DNA of 64,000 bases from Rhina ancylostomus (taxonomy: Eukaryota): assembly GCA_030265395.1 (NCBI GenBank), contig JARFYF010000001.1:31092957-31156956 (forward strand), given 5' to 3'. The number at the start of each line of letters is the position of its first letter. The stretch's first letter is position 1. Below, in pieces: positions 18,001 to 30,000 of this stretch. The position numbers are program-made.

Positions 18001-21000
18001 AAAAATGCCTCATCTCTGTCTTAAATGGGCAAACCCTTACCCTTTAAACATTTTCCCATCCTTCTTGTTCCCAAACCTCCCATGAGAATATCCTCTACAC
18101 ATTTACACTAGGAAGATCCCTCAGATTCTTATAAATTTCAATAAAGTCCTCTAACTCTTTTAAACAGCAGATACAAGCCTAGTGTGTCCAATTGTTCTTC
18201 TTAAGATAACCCACACATTCCAGATACTAGTTAATTTTTCTGAACTGCTTCCAATGCAGTTACACCCTTCCTTAAATAAGAGGACAAGTACAGTACACAG
18301 AACTCCAGATGTGGTCTCGCCAATATTCTAAATAACTAAATGTATTCTCCTTACTTTTGTATTGAATTCCCTTATCAATAAGCAAGTTCATTTTCTTATC
18401 TTTTCTAATTATTGGTATTGGTTTATTATTATCACTTGTACCAAGGACACACAGATCCCTCTGCCTCTCAGTGCTCTGCATTCTCTCACCGCTTACATGA
18501 CTTTGCTTTTATTTTTCCTGTAAAAATGGACATATTCATGCATTCGCTCTTTGTACTTCATTTGCCAGATCTTTGCCCACTCACTTAACCAGTTACCATC
18601 AATGAAGAATTAGACAGAGTTAGAGTTTCAGCTTGATGACTTTTCATCAGAACTGGGGAAATTTCAAAACAAACCAATATTGTAAGGAAGAGAGAACAAA
18701 TAGGAAGGTAGAGCAACAAACAGTCTGCTGGAGGGGCTCAGCAGGTTGAACAGCATCTGTAGAGGAGGAAGGAATTGACAAAGTTTTGGGCTGAAACCCT
18801 GATGTAGAGTTTTGACCTGAAATGTTGAAAATTCCTTCCCCCCTCCACCTGCCCCACAAAGCTGCTCAACCCACTGAGCTCCTCCAGCAAATTGTTTGCT
18901 GCTCCAGATTCCAGCACCTGCAGTCTCTTGTGTCCACAAATGGGAAGGTCTTTGAAAGGGTGGAGACTAGGAAAGATTGAACAATACAAGTGAAGAGCAG
19001 AGCATAAGAAATAGGAACAGGATTAGACTTTTTCCCCATGTTACAGCCGTTCAGGTATGGAAATTTGCCCACATAGAATTTACAAATCACAGCCCAAAAA
19101 TTTTAGAAATGGAATAAAATTTGCTCTCTCAGAATTTATGTGTAAATAAGTAAATAAATCAACCCAAAATTTATCTTTTTCAACTCACATTTCTTGATGA
19201 CAAAGATGATGAACACGCTACAAAAAATTACGATCTGGCCCATTTTCTAGGAATGCAACCCTTCCTTCCCCTGTAGTATGAGGGTCACCTGTACATGAAC
19301 ATGCAGGGAATAGAGGGAAATGGACTATGTGCAGGCAGATGGGTGGGATTAGTATGGATTGGCATTGTGGTCGACGAAGACGTAGTGGACCAAAAGGCTG
19401 TTCCTGTTCTGAACTGTTCTATGCTTTATTTTCTCTTGCAATTAGTCTTTGGTGAAGAATTTGACTTGTTCTCATTAGTCAATGTTACTGGACCATCAAG
19501 TTATGAAGCAAAACTGAGATATTGTATATGTTCTCATAGAGAGAAAATTTACATGAGTAGGGGAAGGACAAATCTTAACAAATAAGTAATTAATAAGTGA
19601 TGCTCAAAATTGTGAAAAGATAAATGCATGTTTTTTTTCACCAGGACACAAAGTTTCCAGCTGATTTGTCCAATCCACATGCTGTAGCCCTTGTATTAAA
19701 CCAGAAACCTGGCAAATTACGAATTAAAGATCTACGAGAGGGTAATTCAGTCGGTAACATGATTACCGATTATTACATTTCTTTCTTAAGAATAAATTAA
19801 TTAATTTATTTTGTTTTGAGTAATTTATGATAATTCTTTACCAGTGGAACAGGAAGAATGAACCTTTGGATTAATCTCAGAAGAATTCCAGTCATACTAA
19901 TTTGAAAGATTATGTGTTCATAATATCTTCTCCATCAGGTGCAATACATTCAAGACTCTAAAGCTCATATTTTATGTGCACCCTTTGCTTGTATTCTCAT
20001 TGCTAACCTACAATGGCTCTATATTTCTCATTCTCCCACTTCAAATAGTTTTGTGGCTTTCTCCAACCTACAACTACCACTTAACACTTCATTCCACTAA
20101 TTCTTCTCTGTTATACCTGTACCAACTTCCTCCAGCTCACACTGTCGACATTTCTTCCCGCCTTGGTAAAGCAGCCAACATAATCAAAGACCCCACCCAC
20201 CTCAGACATTCCCTCTTCTTCCCCCTCCCATCTGGCAGAAGATACAAAAGCCTGAAAGTATGTACCACCAGGCTCAAGGACAGCTTCTATCCTGCTGTTA
20301 TAAGACTATTTAACGACCCCCTAGTACAATAAGCATGCACTCTTAACCTCACAATCTACCTTGCACCTTATGGTCTNNNNNNNNNNNNNNNNNNNNNNNN
20401 NNNNNNNNNNNNNNNNNNNNNNNNNNNNNNNNNNNNNNNNNNNNNNNNNNNNNNNNNNNNNNNNNNNNNNNNNNNNACAACTTCCTAACCCGTATGTCTT
20501 TGGAATGTGGGAGGAAACCAGAGCACTCAGAGGAAACCCATGCAGTCACAGGGAGAACGTACAAACTCCTTACAGACAGTGACCGGAATTGAACCCAGGT
20601 CGCTGGCACTGTAATAGCGTTACGCAACTGTACCATTATTTTGTGTTATTACCAAAAGAAGTATTCTGTGTGGTAATATAATGAACATCTAAAGCATTTC
20701 AAAAGAATTGGGATGAATTTAAATGTCTTGACAAAACTGTTCTCCTGGTCATGGTAGCATATTACTTTGACACAAAAACATTTNNNNNNNNNNAGGCCTG
20801 TACTCTTTCTCTGCAGCAAGCCTGTGGATATGAGTTTACCAGCAAACTTCATAGGATGTACACCGATATGAATGTCAGTGCTGACCTCAACAACAAATTT
20901 ACAGCCACTTTTTTAAGACAACAGGACACTGTAATAGATCTTGGAATCAGCTTTCAGATCTATGTTCTCCAGGTAGGTTAGACTGCAGGATAAACTTCAT

Positions 21001-27000: not shown

Positions 27001-30000
27001 ATATGGTTTTCAGCAGTAAAAGGACAAAGTTTAAAATTACAACCTCCATGCAAAAAGATACACCCCAAGTAAGAGTTTTATTGTCTTGAATGATCACCTT
27101 TCATAGAGTTATTATTTGTTTGAAACTAATCACAAAAGAGAAAATTTTACTTTTCAACTTCAATTCTCATAGAGCTGTACAGCACAGGAACAGGCCCTTC
27201 CACCCACCATGTCCATGCAGGCCATCAACAATCCATCTGTACTGATACCATTTGTCAGCACTTGGTCCATTGCCTTCTCTGCCTTGGTGATTCAACTGCT
27301 CAGATGGATACTTCATGATGTGAGAGGATTTGCCTGCACCACTTCCCAGGCAAGGCACAGGCATAATGGTCTTTACATTCCAGCCACCCTCTGGATGAAA
27401 AATAATTTCTTCAGATCCTCTCTATCCCCATCAACTAATTCAATGCCCGCTAGCTTTAGGCACCCTGAAAGAAGTGTCCTGACCCAAAACATTGACCGCC
27501 TCTTTTCTCAACAGATGCTGCCTGGCCTGCTGAGTTCCTCCAGCATCATCGTGTTTTTCATCTACGTTCCAGCATCTGCAATCTTTTGTTTCCCACAGTA
27601 ATCTAGCTGTAGCCTGTCCAGTGTTTTTTAAAGTTATACCATAACCTCCCTGCTTTTCTATATTCTCTGCCCCAGCAAATGTACACAAGTATCCCTTAAG
27701 CCTTTTTCAGCATCTCGTATACCTACGCTGCCACCTTTAGGGATCCTTGGATTTGTACAGCAGGGTCCCTCTGTTGGTCAATTATCCTTAGGGCCCAACC
27801 ATTGTTTGTGTACATCCTATGCTTTTTCTCATCCATTCAAAATGAATCATGCTGCACGTATCAGGATTAAACTCCACTTGCCATTGCTCTGCCCACCATA
27901 CCAACTGATCTGTATCGTCCTGTAGATGAAGACTGTCCTCCTTACTGTCAATAATACCACCAATATTGTGTCATCTGCAAACTGTTGGATCAATTTGAAG
28001 CATTTCATTCCAGGCAGCAGCAACTCGCAATGTAAAAAATAATTATTGTCTCTGATTTTATAGGTAATCAATTTATCAATTGTTTTGCCATTATGATCCC
28101 ATCTGAATTTTCCACTTTCTTTATGTAACTGAAGTTCCTCAGCCCTTTGGAATAACATTTTGTATTGCCTCCAAGACTGAACCTTGTTTGAAAACTAACC
28201 TCCTTCGTTTTTCACCCTACGCCTTCATCAATAAAGACAAAGAAACCCAATGAATTTTTCTTCTGAGTCTATTCTTCTTCCTTCATATTTTGGGTATTTA
28301 TACCTCTGCTTCCTGCTCTAATTTTAAAGCCATATTACTACTTCATTCTTCTGACCAAAGTGTATCATTCCACACAACTTTGCATTATACTTTACCACTC
28401 TGCTACCTCCTGAAGTCTGTTTAATATCCTGTTCATTGTCTACTACATTTTCAACTTGGGTGTCAATCATAACACCTACTCTGAATGCCTGTCCATTAAT
28501 ATATCTCAAAGAGGGAACCAGTCTAATCCCTGGAGAACACTACTGTATATTTCCTCCAGTTTAAAAATAATTGCTTGACACCATTCTCTGCTTTACCACT
28601 TTCAGGGGATTGAGGGGGTGTGGGGTCCTGGTGAGGGGAATGTTATGTGTTGAATGCTGCTGAGACTTAGTTTGTTTTTTTTGCATGTCTGATTAAAGGA
28701 ACAGTGAACCAGCGCATTTGTACAATGTGCCAACGTTGTCTTGTTTGTGACTTGTTTTCAGAGAACTATAATTAAATCTTTACTGAATTTCTGGTGTCCT
28801 ACTCTATTTTTAACTGGGTCATCAGTACCGATGATTGCATTTTGAGTTGAATGAATCACAATTAGAATAGATGTGATGTTTGAAACTGAGTTTTATGCTT
28901 GTTCCAAAAGGTATTAGTTTCTCTTTTTTCAGAAAAAAAAGATATAAAGGGTGTTGAGATTCTTAACTTTGCAGTTGTTTGTAACTGTAACCTTCTGTTA
29001 TCATTTCATGGATTGAGATCATGAAATTGTCCCAATGCATTGACACAGAAATCCTAAAAGTTGCAATGGAAGGTTCTGGAATGTTGGCAAACTGGAGTTG
29101 GTAACTTGTAGCAGTGTGTGGTGATCAGTTCTTTTCTCCATCTGTTGCAATTGAAATGATAACTGATGAGCTTAATTTCTGCTTTTCAAGTTCTGATTTC
29201 ATTTGTGGTAACAATCGCAAAACTTTATACTGGTTGATTTTAGAACTCTTAACTGTTTAATTTCTTTGTTCAATAAGTACAGCTGTACGCAACACTAGAA
29301 AATATTGTGTTTAACTGCAGCACACATTGTTAGTCACACATCAGAGGTATGTTGAAACAGTCATATTGGGTTTCTCTTGTTGTTTCTTTACTTTCAGGAG
29401 ATGGAACAAACAAGAAGTGCGGTCGATGAGGACAGGAAAATGTATCTGCAGGCTGCTATAGTGCGTATCATGAAAGCACGTAAAGTGCTCCGACACAATG
29501 CACTTATTCAAGAGGTAAAGGTTAACTTTATTTTTAGGCATCGAGAGAGTTAGCAAAATCCAACTATATAGTTCATATATAAATTAATTGAAGATATTTG
29601 CTTTTGGAGATTTGAAGTACACTTCTTGCAACGACCGAAGTGAACAAGAGCACAGTCCTTTCCTTGTAATCAGATCTTGTAATCAGACCTGGCTGATGGA
29701 ATAAAAGTCTTTTGCCTCTGCATACCAAAGTTAATGCAAAATTAGTTTAAATGGCCTTGGCTGGGTTCCTGCTTAGTTCGTGTATGCAGCAAAATAACTG
29801 TTCAAATATATAATAGTAAATCAAGTTGTCATTTAATAAAAGGAATAATATGTTTATTTAACGTTCTCTAAACAAGCTCAAGAAGCACTTGCTGGGAAGG
29901 TGACAAAAATGGAAAAACATTGCCATGCATTGGCATCCTTCATCTTTCGTATGTAATTGGTAGATTAGTTTATTATTGTCACATGTACTGAGGTTCAGTG

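What the first reader, a model, noticed from the sequence alone, without database searches (positions are those of the whole stretch)
20794..29514. Six intact CUL2 exons nested, same strand, inside CFAP221 intron 9
Seen: CFAP221 exon 9 (ends 19741, phase 1) and exon 10 (starts 34671, phase 1) join perfectly. Between them lie six consecutive CUL2 exons with introns, intact splice sites and no stops or frameshifts. They encode the cullin-homology region and the IVRIMK neddylation site, but no CUL2 5' exons and no terminal exon were found in the window. Known: CUL2 and CFAP221 are unlinked in human (10p11 vs 2q14). Inference: either a scaffolding/gap-filling chimera (favoured by N-gaps at 20377-20476 and 20784-20793, 23 bp before exon A, and by the perfect conservation), or a recent DNA-level duplication of a CUL2 segment into a cilia gene.
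[Added by the scan's program, not by the reader: the finding's places include an assembly gap (unread letters, written N; its length is only estimated) at 21927 to 21936. Whether the letters on both sides are continuous or in frame is not known: test that first.]
Basis: partly seen in the sequence, partly recalled or inferred. Interest (0 to 1): 0.75.

Follow-up and report, generated by a model that had tools for sequence, protein, structure and literature searches.

The report
CUL2 gene fragment inside CFAP221 intron
Six intact exons of the ubiquitin-ligase gene CUL2 sit inside an intron of the cilia gene CFAP221 in a draft ray or sawfish-like genome; this is either an assembly mix-up or a very young copy of part of the gene, and sequence alone cannot say which.

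Summary
Six CUL2 exons (20817-29514, + strand) with intact splice sites and no stops lie between CFAP221 exons 9 (ends 19741) and 10 (starts 34671), which join exactly as in Pristis pectinata CFAP221. No other CUL2 exon is in the window. The genome is an elasmobranch, nearest to Pristis, not human.

New points:
- The flagged gap 21927-21936 is intronic. The exons on either side of it are consecutive in orthologues and both phase 0.
- The three gaps are all at the left edge. The right edge lies in a gap-free 30.4-kb stretch that holds CUL2 exons C-F and CFAP221 exons 10-13. A plain scaffolding error is therefore not enough.
- The block carries intronic detail of the native Pristis CUL2 locus: a repeat-derived alternative last exon and an alternative splice pair.
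- The coding sequence is 239/240 identical to Pristis CUL2, against 79/86 for that unconstrained exon. An old decaying copy is unlikely.
- CUL2 and CFAP221 lie on different chromosome-sized contigs in 5 of 5 elasmobranchs.
- Splicing exon A after exon 9 gives a stop after five codons.

Verdict: unresolved. Chimeric assembly about 0.5, young real partial duplication about 0.4. Read depth and spanning reads would decide.

The parts
19645..19741 (+). CFAP221 exon 9. It ends with one base of a codon (phase 1).
   Evidence: tblastn of four elasmobranch CFAP221 proteins; sequence and splice sites; junction codon GCA = A, as in Pristis.
19901..20376 (+). Repeat-like open frame that fills the end of the contig before the 100-N gap. 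I take it for a transposon tail from recalled elasmobranch repeat motifs.
   Evidence: ORF list; sequence; no Pfam hit. The transposon label is recalled, not tested.
20377..20476 (.). 100-N assembly gap, the join between the contig carrying CFAP221 exon 9 and everything to its right.
   Evidence: Its flanks do not overlap, whereas the other two 100-N gaps in the window have overlapping flanks of 11 nt and 53 nt.
20477..20783 (.). 307-nt contig. Positions 20483-20618 are a dispersed repeat; which locus the contig belongs to is unknown.
   Evidence: Self-blastn finds copies at 6021-6096, 46925-47016 and 51825-51955 with 76-85% identity; contig sizes.
20784..20793 (.). 10-N gap, 23 nt upstream of CUL2 exon A.
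   Evidence: no flank overlap.
20817..20972 (+). CUL2 exon A (residues 463-514 of 746-residue elasmobranch CUL2).
   Evidence: Pfam Cullin E 9.7e-11; PDB Cullin-2 E 7e-24; 52/52 identical to Pristis.
21380..21457 (+). CUL2 exon B (residues 515-540).
   Evidence: tblastn E 4e-10; 26/26 identical to Pristis; splice sites.
21927..21936 (.). 10-N gap inside CUL2 intron B-C, lying in repeat-like sequence.
   Evidence: Exons B and C are consecutive in orthologues.
24126..24192 (+). CUL2 exon C (residues 541-562 plus one base).
   Evidence: Pfam Cullin E 1.4e-4, below the cut-off; 22/22 identical to Pristis.
26032..26234 (+). CUL2 exon D. GC donor at 26235; alternative GT donor after 26238.
   Evidence: Pfam Cullin E 1.1e-14; PDB Cullin-2 E 8e-35; 66/67 identical to Pristis, the one change being I to V.
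26967..27068 (+). CUL2 exon E. Alternative acceptor gives a start at 26971.
   Evidence: tblastn E 6e-14; 34/34 identical to Pristis isoform X4. The K-ED and K-AN isoforms are both annotated in relatives.
27173..27430 (+). Repeat-derived alternative last exon in intron E-F, orthologous to the C-terminus of Pristis CUL2 isoforms X1 and X2.
   Evidence: 79/86 identical; acceptor AG just upstream; the next best copy in the window is 42% identical over 31 residues.
29398..29514 (+). CUL2 exon F, carrying the start of the neddylation (Cullin_Nedd8) domain with IVRIMK.
   Evidence: Pfam Cullin_Nedd8 E 3.1e-11, profile positions 1-28 of 63; 39/39 identical to Pristis.
29515..34670 (.). Gap-free 5.2-kb spacer that must contain the right-hand junction between CUL2-derived and CFAP221-derived DNA. 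The junction itself was not located.
   Evidence: No N; no CUL2 or CFAP221 coding match; old dispersed repeats only; no flanking direct or inverted repeats.
34671..34779 (+). CFAP221 exon 10.
   Evidence: 5 of 5 significant hits are elasmobranch CFAP221; tblastn; junction.

Best explanation
The block is most likely a piece of this animal's one native CUL2 locus that the assembler stitched into the CFAP221 locus. On this reading, the 30.4-kb gap-free stretch 21937-52370 is chimeric. Its left part is CUL2 intron B-C through roughly 3-5 kb of the intron after exon F. Its right part is the end of CFAP221 intron 9 followed by exons 10-13. The seam lies somewhere in 29515-34670, probably inside a dispersed repeat or a wrongly closed gap. 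A later scaffolding step then correctly placed the contig with CFAP221 exons 3-9 to the left, through the 100-N gap. That trapped the CUL2 piece 'inside' intron 9.

Shown: the anatomy, the gap layout, orthology to the native CUL2 locus, and CUL2-grade conservation. Inferred: that the junction is artificial.
For: (1) The six exons and their introns look exactly like the native locus. 239/240 residues match Pristis CUL2. All splice sites are intact. The block keeps the same repeat-derived alternative last exon after exon E (79/86) and the same alternative D/E splice pair.

(2) The coding divergence of 1/240 is far below that of the unconstrained alternative exon, 7/86. P(<=1 change) is 6e-4 if the copy had drifted freely since the split from Pristis.

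(3) The block is cut off in introns at both ends. It begins 23 nt before exon A, at a contig end, and the window holds no 5' or last exon.

(4) The left edge is three gaps within 1.6 kb, in repeat-rich sequence. It includes the only one of the three 100-N gaps whose flanks do not overlap.

(5) This is a low-contiguity draft: 10 gaps in 64 kb, contigs of 0.3-8.5 kb apart from the one 30.4-kb stretch, and a 73-nt poly-C run at a contig start.

(6) The two genes are on contigs of different size in 5 of 5 elasmobranchs.

(7) If the arrangement were real, six constitutive-grade exons in the sense orientation would put a stop five codons into exon A of CFAP221 mRNA. Selection should remove such an insertion; that last step is inference.
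Against: The right-hand junction has no gap. CUL2 exons C-F and CFAP221 exons 10-13 are in one uninterrupted stretch, and contig-level chimeras are rarer than scaffold misjoins. No young, high-identity repeat that could explain a false join was seen in 29515-34670. All repeats there that have copies elsewhere in the window are 70-76% identical to those copies, although the other copy could lie anywhere in the genome. G+C content shows no step. At the lower 95% bound of the neutral yardstick, the conservation argument weakens to P = 0.09. Nothing here measures read support.
Confidence: 0.5

Rival explanations
1. The block is a real, very young DNA-level duplication: at least 8.7 kb of the CUL2 locus, introns included, copied from another chromosome into CFAP221 intron 9 in the sense orientation. 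It could be fixed or heterozygous in the sequenced animal. It has no start and no last exon, so it cannot make a cullin. Its likely effect is as a set of poison exons in CFAP221 transcripts, or none if they are skipped.
For: CUL2 exon F and CFAP221 exon 10 are joined without a gap inside the longest contig of the window. The CFAP221 halves on both sides have the same affinity to Pristis (330/340 and 263/277 identical), and the block itself is also nearest to Pristis, so all three parts come from one genome. Conservation allows a copy that has been free of constraint for up to about half the time since the split from Pristis. Fragmented assembly at one edge of the block is what a collapsed two-copy segment would also give (inference).
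Against: No target-site duplication or terminal repeat flanks the block. There is no sign of decay at all: no splice-site change, and a single conservative I to V change. Exon A read in the CFAP221 frame stops after five codons, so the insertion should be harmful to a gene whose loss causes ciliary disease in mouse (recalled). The left junction is unseen, hidden by three gaps.
Confidence: 0.4
2. The block is an older, retained partial CUL2 copy that is expressed and under selection of its own, for example as an alternative 3' module or a regulatory decoy within CFAP221.
For: Full conservation of six exons and their splice sites; the six exons sum to 723 nt, a multiple of three.
Against: The frame does not fit the host: exon 9 ends in phase 1, exon A starts in phase 0, and a stop follows after five codons. 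The window holds no start codon context, no upstream CUL2 exon and no last exon. None of the four elasmobranch CFAP221 proteins gave a significant match inside the block, and none lists a Cullin Pfam domain.
Confidence: 0.04
3. The gap-free stretch is faithful but the 100-N join is wrong: a rearrangement fuses CUL2 (through exon F) to the 3' half of CFAP221, and CFAP221 exons 1-9 lie elsewhere.
For: The 100-N gap at 20377-20476 is the only one of the three whose flanks do not overlap.
Against: It would break both genes. Exons 9 and 10 follow in the right order and orientation and join exactly. The 5' CUL2 exons are not seen upstream in the window.
Confidence: 0.03

Closest known systems
Native CUL2 (cullin-2) locus of elasmobranchs, best represented by Pristis pectinata CUL2 isoforms X1-X4
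   Same: Six consecutive exons covering residues 463-703 of the 746-residue protein, 239/240 identical. The block has the same repeat-derived alternative last exon after exon E (79/86) and the same alternative K-ED / K-AN splice pair.
   Different: The exons for residues 1-462 and for the last 43 residues are absent from the window. The neighbours are CFAP221 exons, whereas CUL2 and CFAP221 sit on different chromosome-sized contigs in Pristis and four other elasmobranchs.
Chimeric contigs and interleaved scaffolds in short-read draft assemblies
   Same: A fragment of an unlinked gene, cut off in introns, perfectly conserved, sitting in a repeat-rich, gap-ridden stretch of a low-contiguity scaffold.
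   Different: One of the two junctions is gap-free. Read evidence, which is what defines such an artefact, could not be examined.
Young partial-gene segmental duplications (incomplete copies with introns, as described for primate genomes; recalled, no paper read)
   Same: A multi-exon genomic copy with introns that lacks both gene ends, lies on another chromosome, and is nearly identical to its source.
   Different: A second copy has not been shown, no junction signature was found, and the copy sits in the sense orientation inside another gene's intron, out of frame.
Nested genes within introns
   Same: Coding exons of one gene lie inside an intron of another.
   Different: Nested genes are complete transcription units. 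This block has no first or last exon, so it does not qualify as one.

Membership tests
Cullin-2 (CUL2) gene | Cullin homology domain (Pfam PF00888) | tested here: met
   Exons A and D pass the curated cut-off (41.6 and 54.6 bits against 33.2). Exon C scores 21.2 bits, below the cut-off. Together they cover profile positions 433-602 of 620.
Cullin-2 (CUL2) gene | Closer to CUL2 than to other cullins | tested here: met
   PDB: Cullin-2 chains at E 8e-35 (exon D) and 7e-24 (exon A). The best other cullins reach 7e-6 (Cullin-3) and 4e-8 (Cullin-1). The listed named hits are cullin-2.
Cullin-2 (CUL2) gene | Complete neddylation / winged-helix B domain (PF10557) and C-terminus | tested here: not met
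   Only profile positions 1-28 of 63 are present, in exon F. The last 43 residues were not found anywhere in the window, even at E up to 1000.
Cullin-2 (CUL2) gene | N-terminal cullin repeats that bind the adaptor (residues 1-462) | tested here: not met
   tblastn of the first 465 residues of Pristis CUL2 gave no hit better than E = 1.1. The same holds for 48 named elasmobranch isoforms.
CFAP221 (PCDP1) gene, host of the block | Collinear exons matching orthologues, with exons 9 and 10 adjacent in the protein | tested here: met
   All 617 residues of Pristis CFAP221 are covered in order on the + strand, at most 593/617 identical. The junction peptide is identical.
Assembly chimera | No reads or molecules span the junctions; single-copy depth; source locus broken at the same exons | not testable with these tools
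Segmental (partial-gene) duplication | Two copies in the genome, with junctions supported by reads | not testable with these tools
   For the same reason. Only one copy is visible, in this window.
Segmental (partial-gene) duplication | Junction signatures (flanking direct repeats, transposon ends) | tested here: not met
   No direct or inverted repeat pair flanks the block in 19000-35500. The left junction may be hidden in gaps.
Nested gene | A complete transcription unit within the host intron | tested here: not met
   First and last coding exons are absent.

The most novel reading that the evidence does not exclude
The junction is real. A very young interchromosomal duplication has dropped six splice-competent exons of an essential ubiquitin-ligase scaffold gene, in the sense orientation, into intron 9 of a ciliary gene of a sawfish-like ray. 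That would create a natural poison-exon cassette: a stop five codons into exon A. It would either be segregating as a harmful structural variant or be silenced by exon skipping. Such a case would give a dated, clean example of how partial gene copies are born and how a host gene tolerates them.
Probability: 0.4. Interest if true: 0.45.

Novelty: not a real feature. Interest (0 to 1): 0.25.

Why it matters
If the block is an artefact, it matters only for curation. The scaffold should be broken in 29515-34670 and at the left gaps. Gene predictors could otherwise emit a truncated CFAP221, a broken CUL2 or a false fusion in this species.

If it is real, it is a fresh partial-gene duplication caught before any decay, in a slowly evolving vertebrate lineage. 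It would have a testable effect on splicing of a gene needed for motile cilia. That is a known kind of event, of moderate interest.

One caution applies more widely. In short-read assemblies a young duplicate collapses to one copy. 'The source locus lacks these exons' therefore cannot by itself tell a misassembly from a duplication.

Tried and rejected
- Search for the rest of CUL2 in the window: nothing. Tried the Rhinoraja protein at E up to 10; the last 46 residues of Pristis CUL2 at E up to 1000 and the first 465 residues at E up to 10; and 48 named isoforms.
- Junction signatures: the repeat finders on 19000-35500 gave only short chance-level pairs and seven-to-thirteen-base tandems.
- Self-blastn: 9 matches touch 19742-34670. 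Eight are to old repeat copies elsewhere in the window (70-85% identical) and one is a 40-nt palindrome. None marks a seam.
- Composition: G+C is 0.33-0.41 throughout, with no step at the block.
- Intronic RNA genes as locus markers: 0 Rfam matches at gathering score and 0 tRNAs.
- Pfam on 10 open frames from the flanks and spacer: 0 families.
- Homologue search with the alternative-exon frame among proteins of 250-2000 residues: 312 candidates, none significant. The Pristis isoforms that carry it are hidden inside a cluster whose representative lacks it, so I compared directly instead.
- Helitron or other transposon capture, and retrocopy: rejected. The introns are kept and no terminal structure was found.
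- Contamination from another species or from human: rejected. The block and both CFAP221 halves are all nearest to Pristis, and exon D differs from the solved Cullin-2 chains at 4 of 67 residues.
- Literature: 0 papers hold both 'CFAP221' and 'CUL2'. No paper was read.
- One call failed on size: a 35-residue exon, below the minimum of 40.

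
Full report
WHAT IS THERE

The window is vertebrate DNA with ten N gaps. I do not take it for human. The nearest named proteins are elasmobranch, above all those of Pristis pectinata. Exon D differs from the solved Cullin-2 chains at 4 of 67 residues.

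CFAP221 runs along the + strand through the whole window. All 617 residues of the Pristis protein are matched, in order. Exon 9 is at 19645-19741 and exon 10 at 34671-34779. At most 593/617 residues are identical. This is an upper bound, because where two matches overlapped I counted the better one.

Exon 9 ends with one base of a codon and exon 10 supplies the other two. The codon is GCA, and the peptide ...KDLRE-A-LANIQ... is exactly that of Pristis.

THE SIX CUL2 EXONS

Between these two exons lie six exons of CUL2 on the same strand: 20817-20972, 21380-21457, 24126-24192, 26032-26234, 26967-27068 and 29398-29514. All have AG acceptors with pyrimidine tracts, consistent phases and no stops.

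Five donors are GT. Exon D has a GC donor in the usual AAG|GCAAGT context. There is also a GT donor 4 nt further on that pairs with an AG 4 nt into exon E. The two routes give K-ED or K-AN, and both are annotated among elasmobranch CUL2 isoforms.

Searching exon by exon:
- Pfam places A, C and D in Cullin and F in Cullin_Nedd8. A, D and F are above the curated cut-off, C is below it, and B and E give no hit.
- The PDB search places A and D in Cullin-2, at residues 463-513 and 563-629, far ahead of Cullin-1 and Cullin-3.

I did not search, fold or print the joined six-exon model.

No other CUL2 exon is in the window, neither the 5' 462 residues nor the last 43.

THE FLAGGED GAP

The gap at 21927-21936 lies in intron B-C, 470 nt after exon B and 2189 nt before exon C, in repeat-like sequence. 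Exons B and C are consecutive in every orthologue compared (residues 515-540 and 541-562) and both are phase 0. The gap therefore hides no exon, and no frame depends on it.

Its flanks share no overlap. Physical continuity across it is not shown, and I did not fill it.

The gap at 20784-20793 lies 23 nt before exon A, so only the pyrimidine tract and the AG of that intron are visible.

LAYOUT OF THE GAPS

The contigs between gaps measure 3.4, 8.5, 8.3, 0.3, 1.1, 30.4, 0.7, 2.9, 4.0, 1.6 and 1.1 kb.

All three gaps near the block are at its left edge:
- a 100-N gap after the contig with CFAP221 exon 9;
- then a 307-nt contig that is mostly a dispersed repeat;
- then a 10-N gap;
- then a 1133-nt contig with exons A and B;
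- then a 10-N gap.

From 21937 to 52370 there is no N at all. One uninterrupted stretch holds CUL2 exons C-F and CFAP221 exons 10-13. A wrong scaffold join cannot by itself explain the arrangement. It takes either a chimeric contig (or a falsely closed gap) with its seam in 29515-34670, or a real junction.

Of the three 100-N gaps in the window, two have flanks that overlap: 11 nt exactly at 3409-3508, and 53 nt with one mismatch at 56298-56397. They therefore join true neighbours. The one at 20377-20476 has no overlap.

WHERE THE BLOCK COMES FROM

Per exon, the block is 239/240 identical to Pristis CUL2 isoform X4. It is 231-236/240 identical to the CUL2 of the other eight elasmobranch species compared (nine proteins), and 223/240 identical to that of a frog. 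A further Pristis isoform, X1, scores 206/240 because it lacks exon F. The one difference from Pristis is I to V in exon D, at a column that is invariant in the seven aligned sequences.

Pristis isoforms X1 and X2 end in an alternative exon. The window has that exon at 27173-27430, 105 nt after exon E and behind an AG, 79/86 identical. The next best copy in the window is 42% identical over 31 residues. This is therefore the orthologous insertion, not just another member of a repeat family. The block is genomic CUL2 locus DNA, intron detail included.

A ROUGH CLOCK

The repeat-derived exon differs from Pristis at 7/86 residues, CFAP221 at 24 or more of 617, and the CUL2 exons at 1/240.

If the block had drifted without constraint on its own lineage since the split from Pristis, about 9.8 changes would be expected, giving P(<=1) = 6e-4. 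At the lower 95% bound of the yardstick, P is 0.09. A copy free of constraint for up to about half that time is still allowed.

The block is therefore either the native locus or a young copy. The yardstick is a single short exon assumed to be neutral, which is an inference.

LINKAGE IN RELATIVES

By the contig lengths that the protein tools list, CUL2 and CFAP221 sit on different chromosome-sized contigs in all five species for which both were listed:

| Species | CUL2 contig (Mb) | CFAP221 contig (Mb) |
|---|---|---|
| Pristis pectinata | 116.6 | 150.0 |
| Rhinoraja longicauda | 116.5 | 76.2 |
| Amblyraja radiata | 151.6 | 91.0 |
| Narcine bancroftii | 494.5 | 321.5 |
| Heterodontus francisci | 227.1 | 142.0 |

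CONSEQUENCE IF REAL

Exon A starts in phase 0 and exon 9 ends in phase 1. Splicing them together gives A-S-L-W-I-stop. The six exons sum to 723 nt, so including all of them would restore the frame downstream, but the stops within them remain.

The block has no start and no last exon, so it cannot make a cullin. It could act only as poison exons, or be skipped.

SEARCH FOR A SEAM OR A MECHANISM

Nothing decisive was found:
- no flanking direct or inverted repeats;
- only old dispersed repeats, 70-85% identical to their other copies in the window;
- no G+C step;
- no Rfam family or tRNA;
- no Pfam domain in ten flanking open frames.

WEIGHING

For an artefact:
- native-grade conservation;
- truncation at a contig end;
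- a shattered, repeat-rich left edge;
- a poor draft that includes a 73-nt poly-C run at a contig start;
- unlinked genes in relatives;
- the expected harm to CFAP221.

For a real young duplication:
- the gap-free right junction inside the longest contig;
- the same species affinity for all three parts;
- the fact that a collapsed two-copy segment would also break the assembly at its edge.

I put the chimera at about 0.5, the young duplication at about 0.4, and other readings at under 0.1.

WHAT STAYED UNCHECKED
- The rest of this assembly, its reads, and the orthologous introns in relatives.
I did not use them.
- The literature search for both gene names found 0 papers. No paper or supplement was read.
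- From recall, not from any call: what gap lengths of 10 and 100 N mean for particular assemblers, the transposon labels, the mouse phenotype of CFAP221 loss, and the human map positions.

Noticed in passing
window 3409-3508 and 56298-56397: Two of the three 100-N gaps have flanks that overlap: 11 nt exactly, and 53 nt with one mismatch. These gaps are probably of zero or negative length and duplicate a little sequence. The second abuts a CFAP221 exon (56398-56526).
   Followed up: partly
window 12073-12145: A 73-nt run of C starts a contig directly after the 26-N gap. It may be a sequencing or assembly artefact rather than real sequence.
   Followed up: no
window 27173-27430: A repeat-derived open frame in CUL2 intron E-F is the orthologue (79/86) of the alternative C-terminal exon of Pristis pectinata CUL2 isoforms X1/X2. 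Those isoforms lack the neddylation exon. In the window the frame stays open for 142 codons, whereas the Pristis isoforms end after residue 86.
   Followed up: partly
window 26235-26240 and 26965-26970: The intron between CUL2 exons D and E can be removed as GC-AG, or as GT-AG shifted by 4 nt at both ends. Both keep the frame, giving K-ED or K-AN, and both protein forms are annotated in elasmobranchs.
   Followed up: yes
window 26130-26140 (exon D): The only residue that differs from Pristis CUL2 is V in place of I (NNSE-V-VSY). This column is invariant in the seven elasmobranch sequences aligned.
   Followed up: partly
window 17646-19645: Narcine bancroftii CFAP221 has about 26 residues between the matches to exons 8 and 9 (residues 317-342) that found no counterpart in the window. 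This may be an extra or alternative exon in that species.
   Followed up: no
window 20483-20618, 46925-47016, 51825-51955, 6021-6096: Four copies of a short dispersed repeat, 76-85% identical. One fills most of the 307-nt contig at the left edge of the block.
   Followed up: partly
window 62881-62912: A CT dinucleotide run starts the contig after the 812-N gap. Contig breaks in this window tend to fall at low-complexity or repeated sequence.
   Followed up: no
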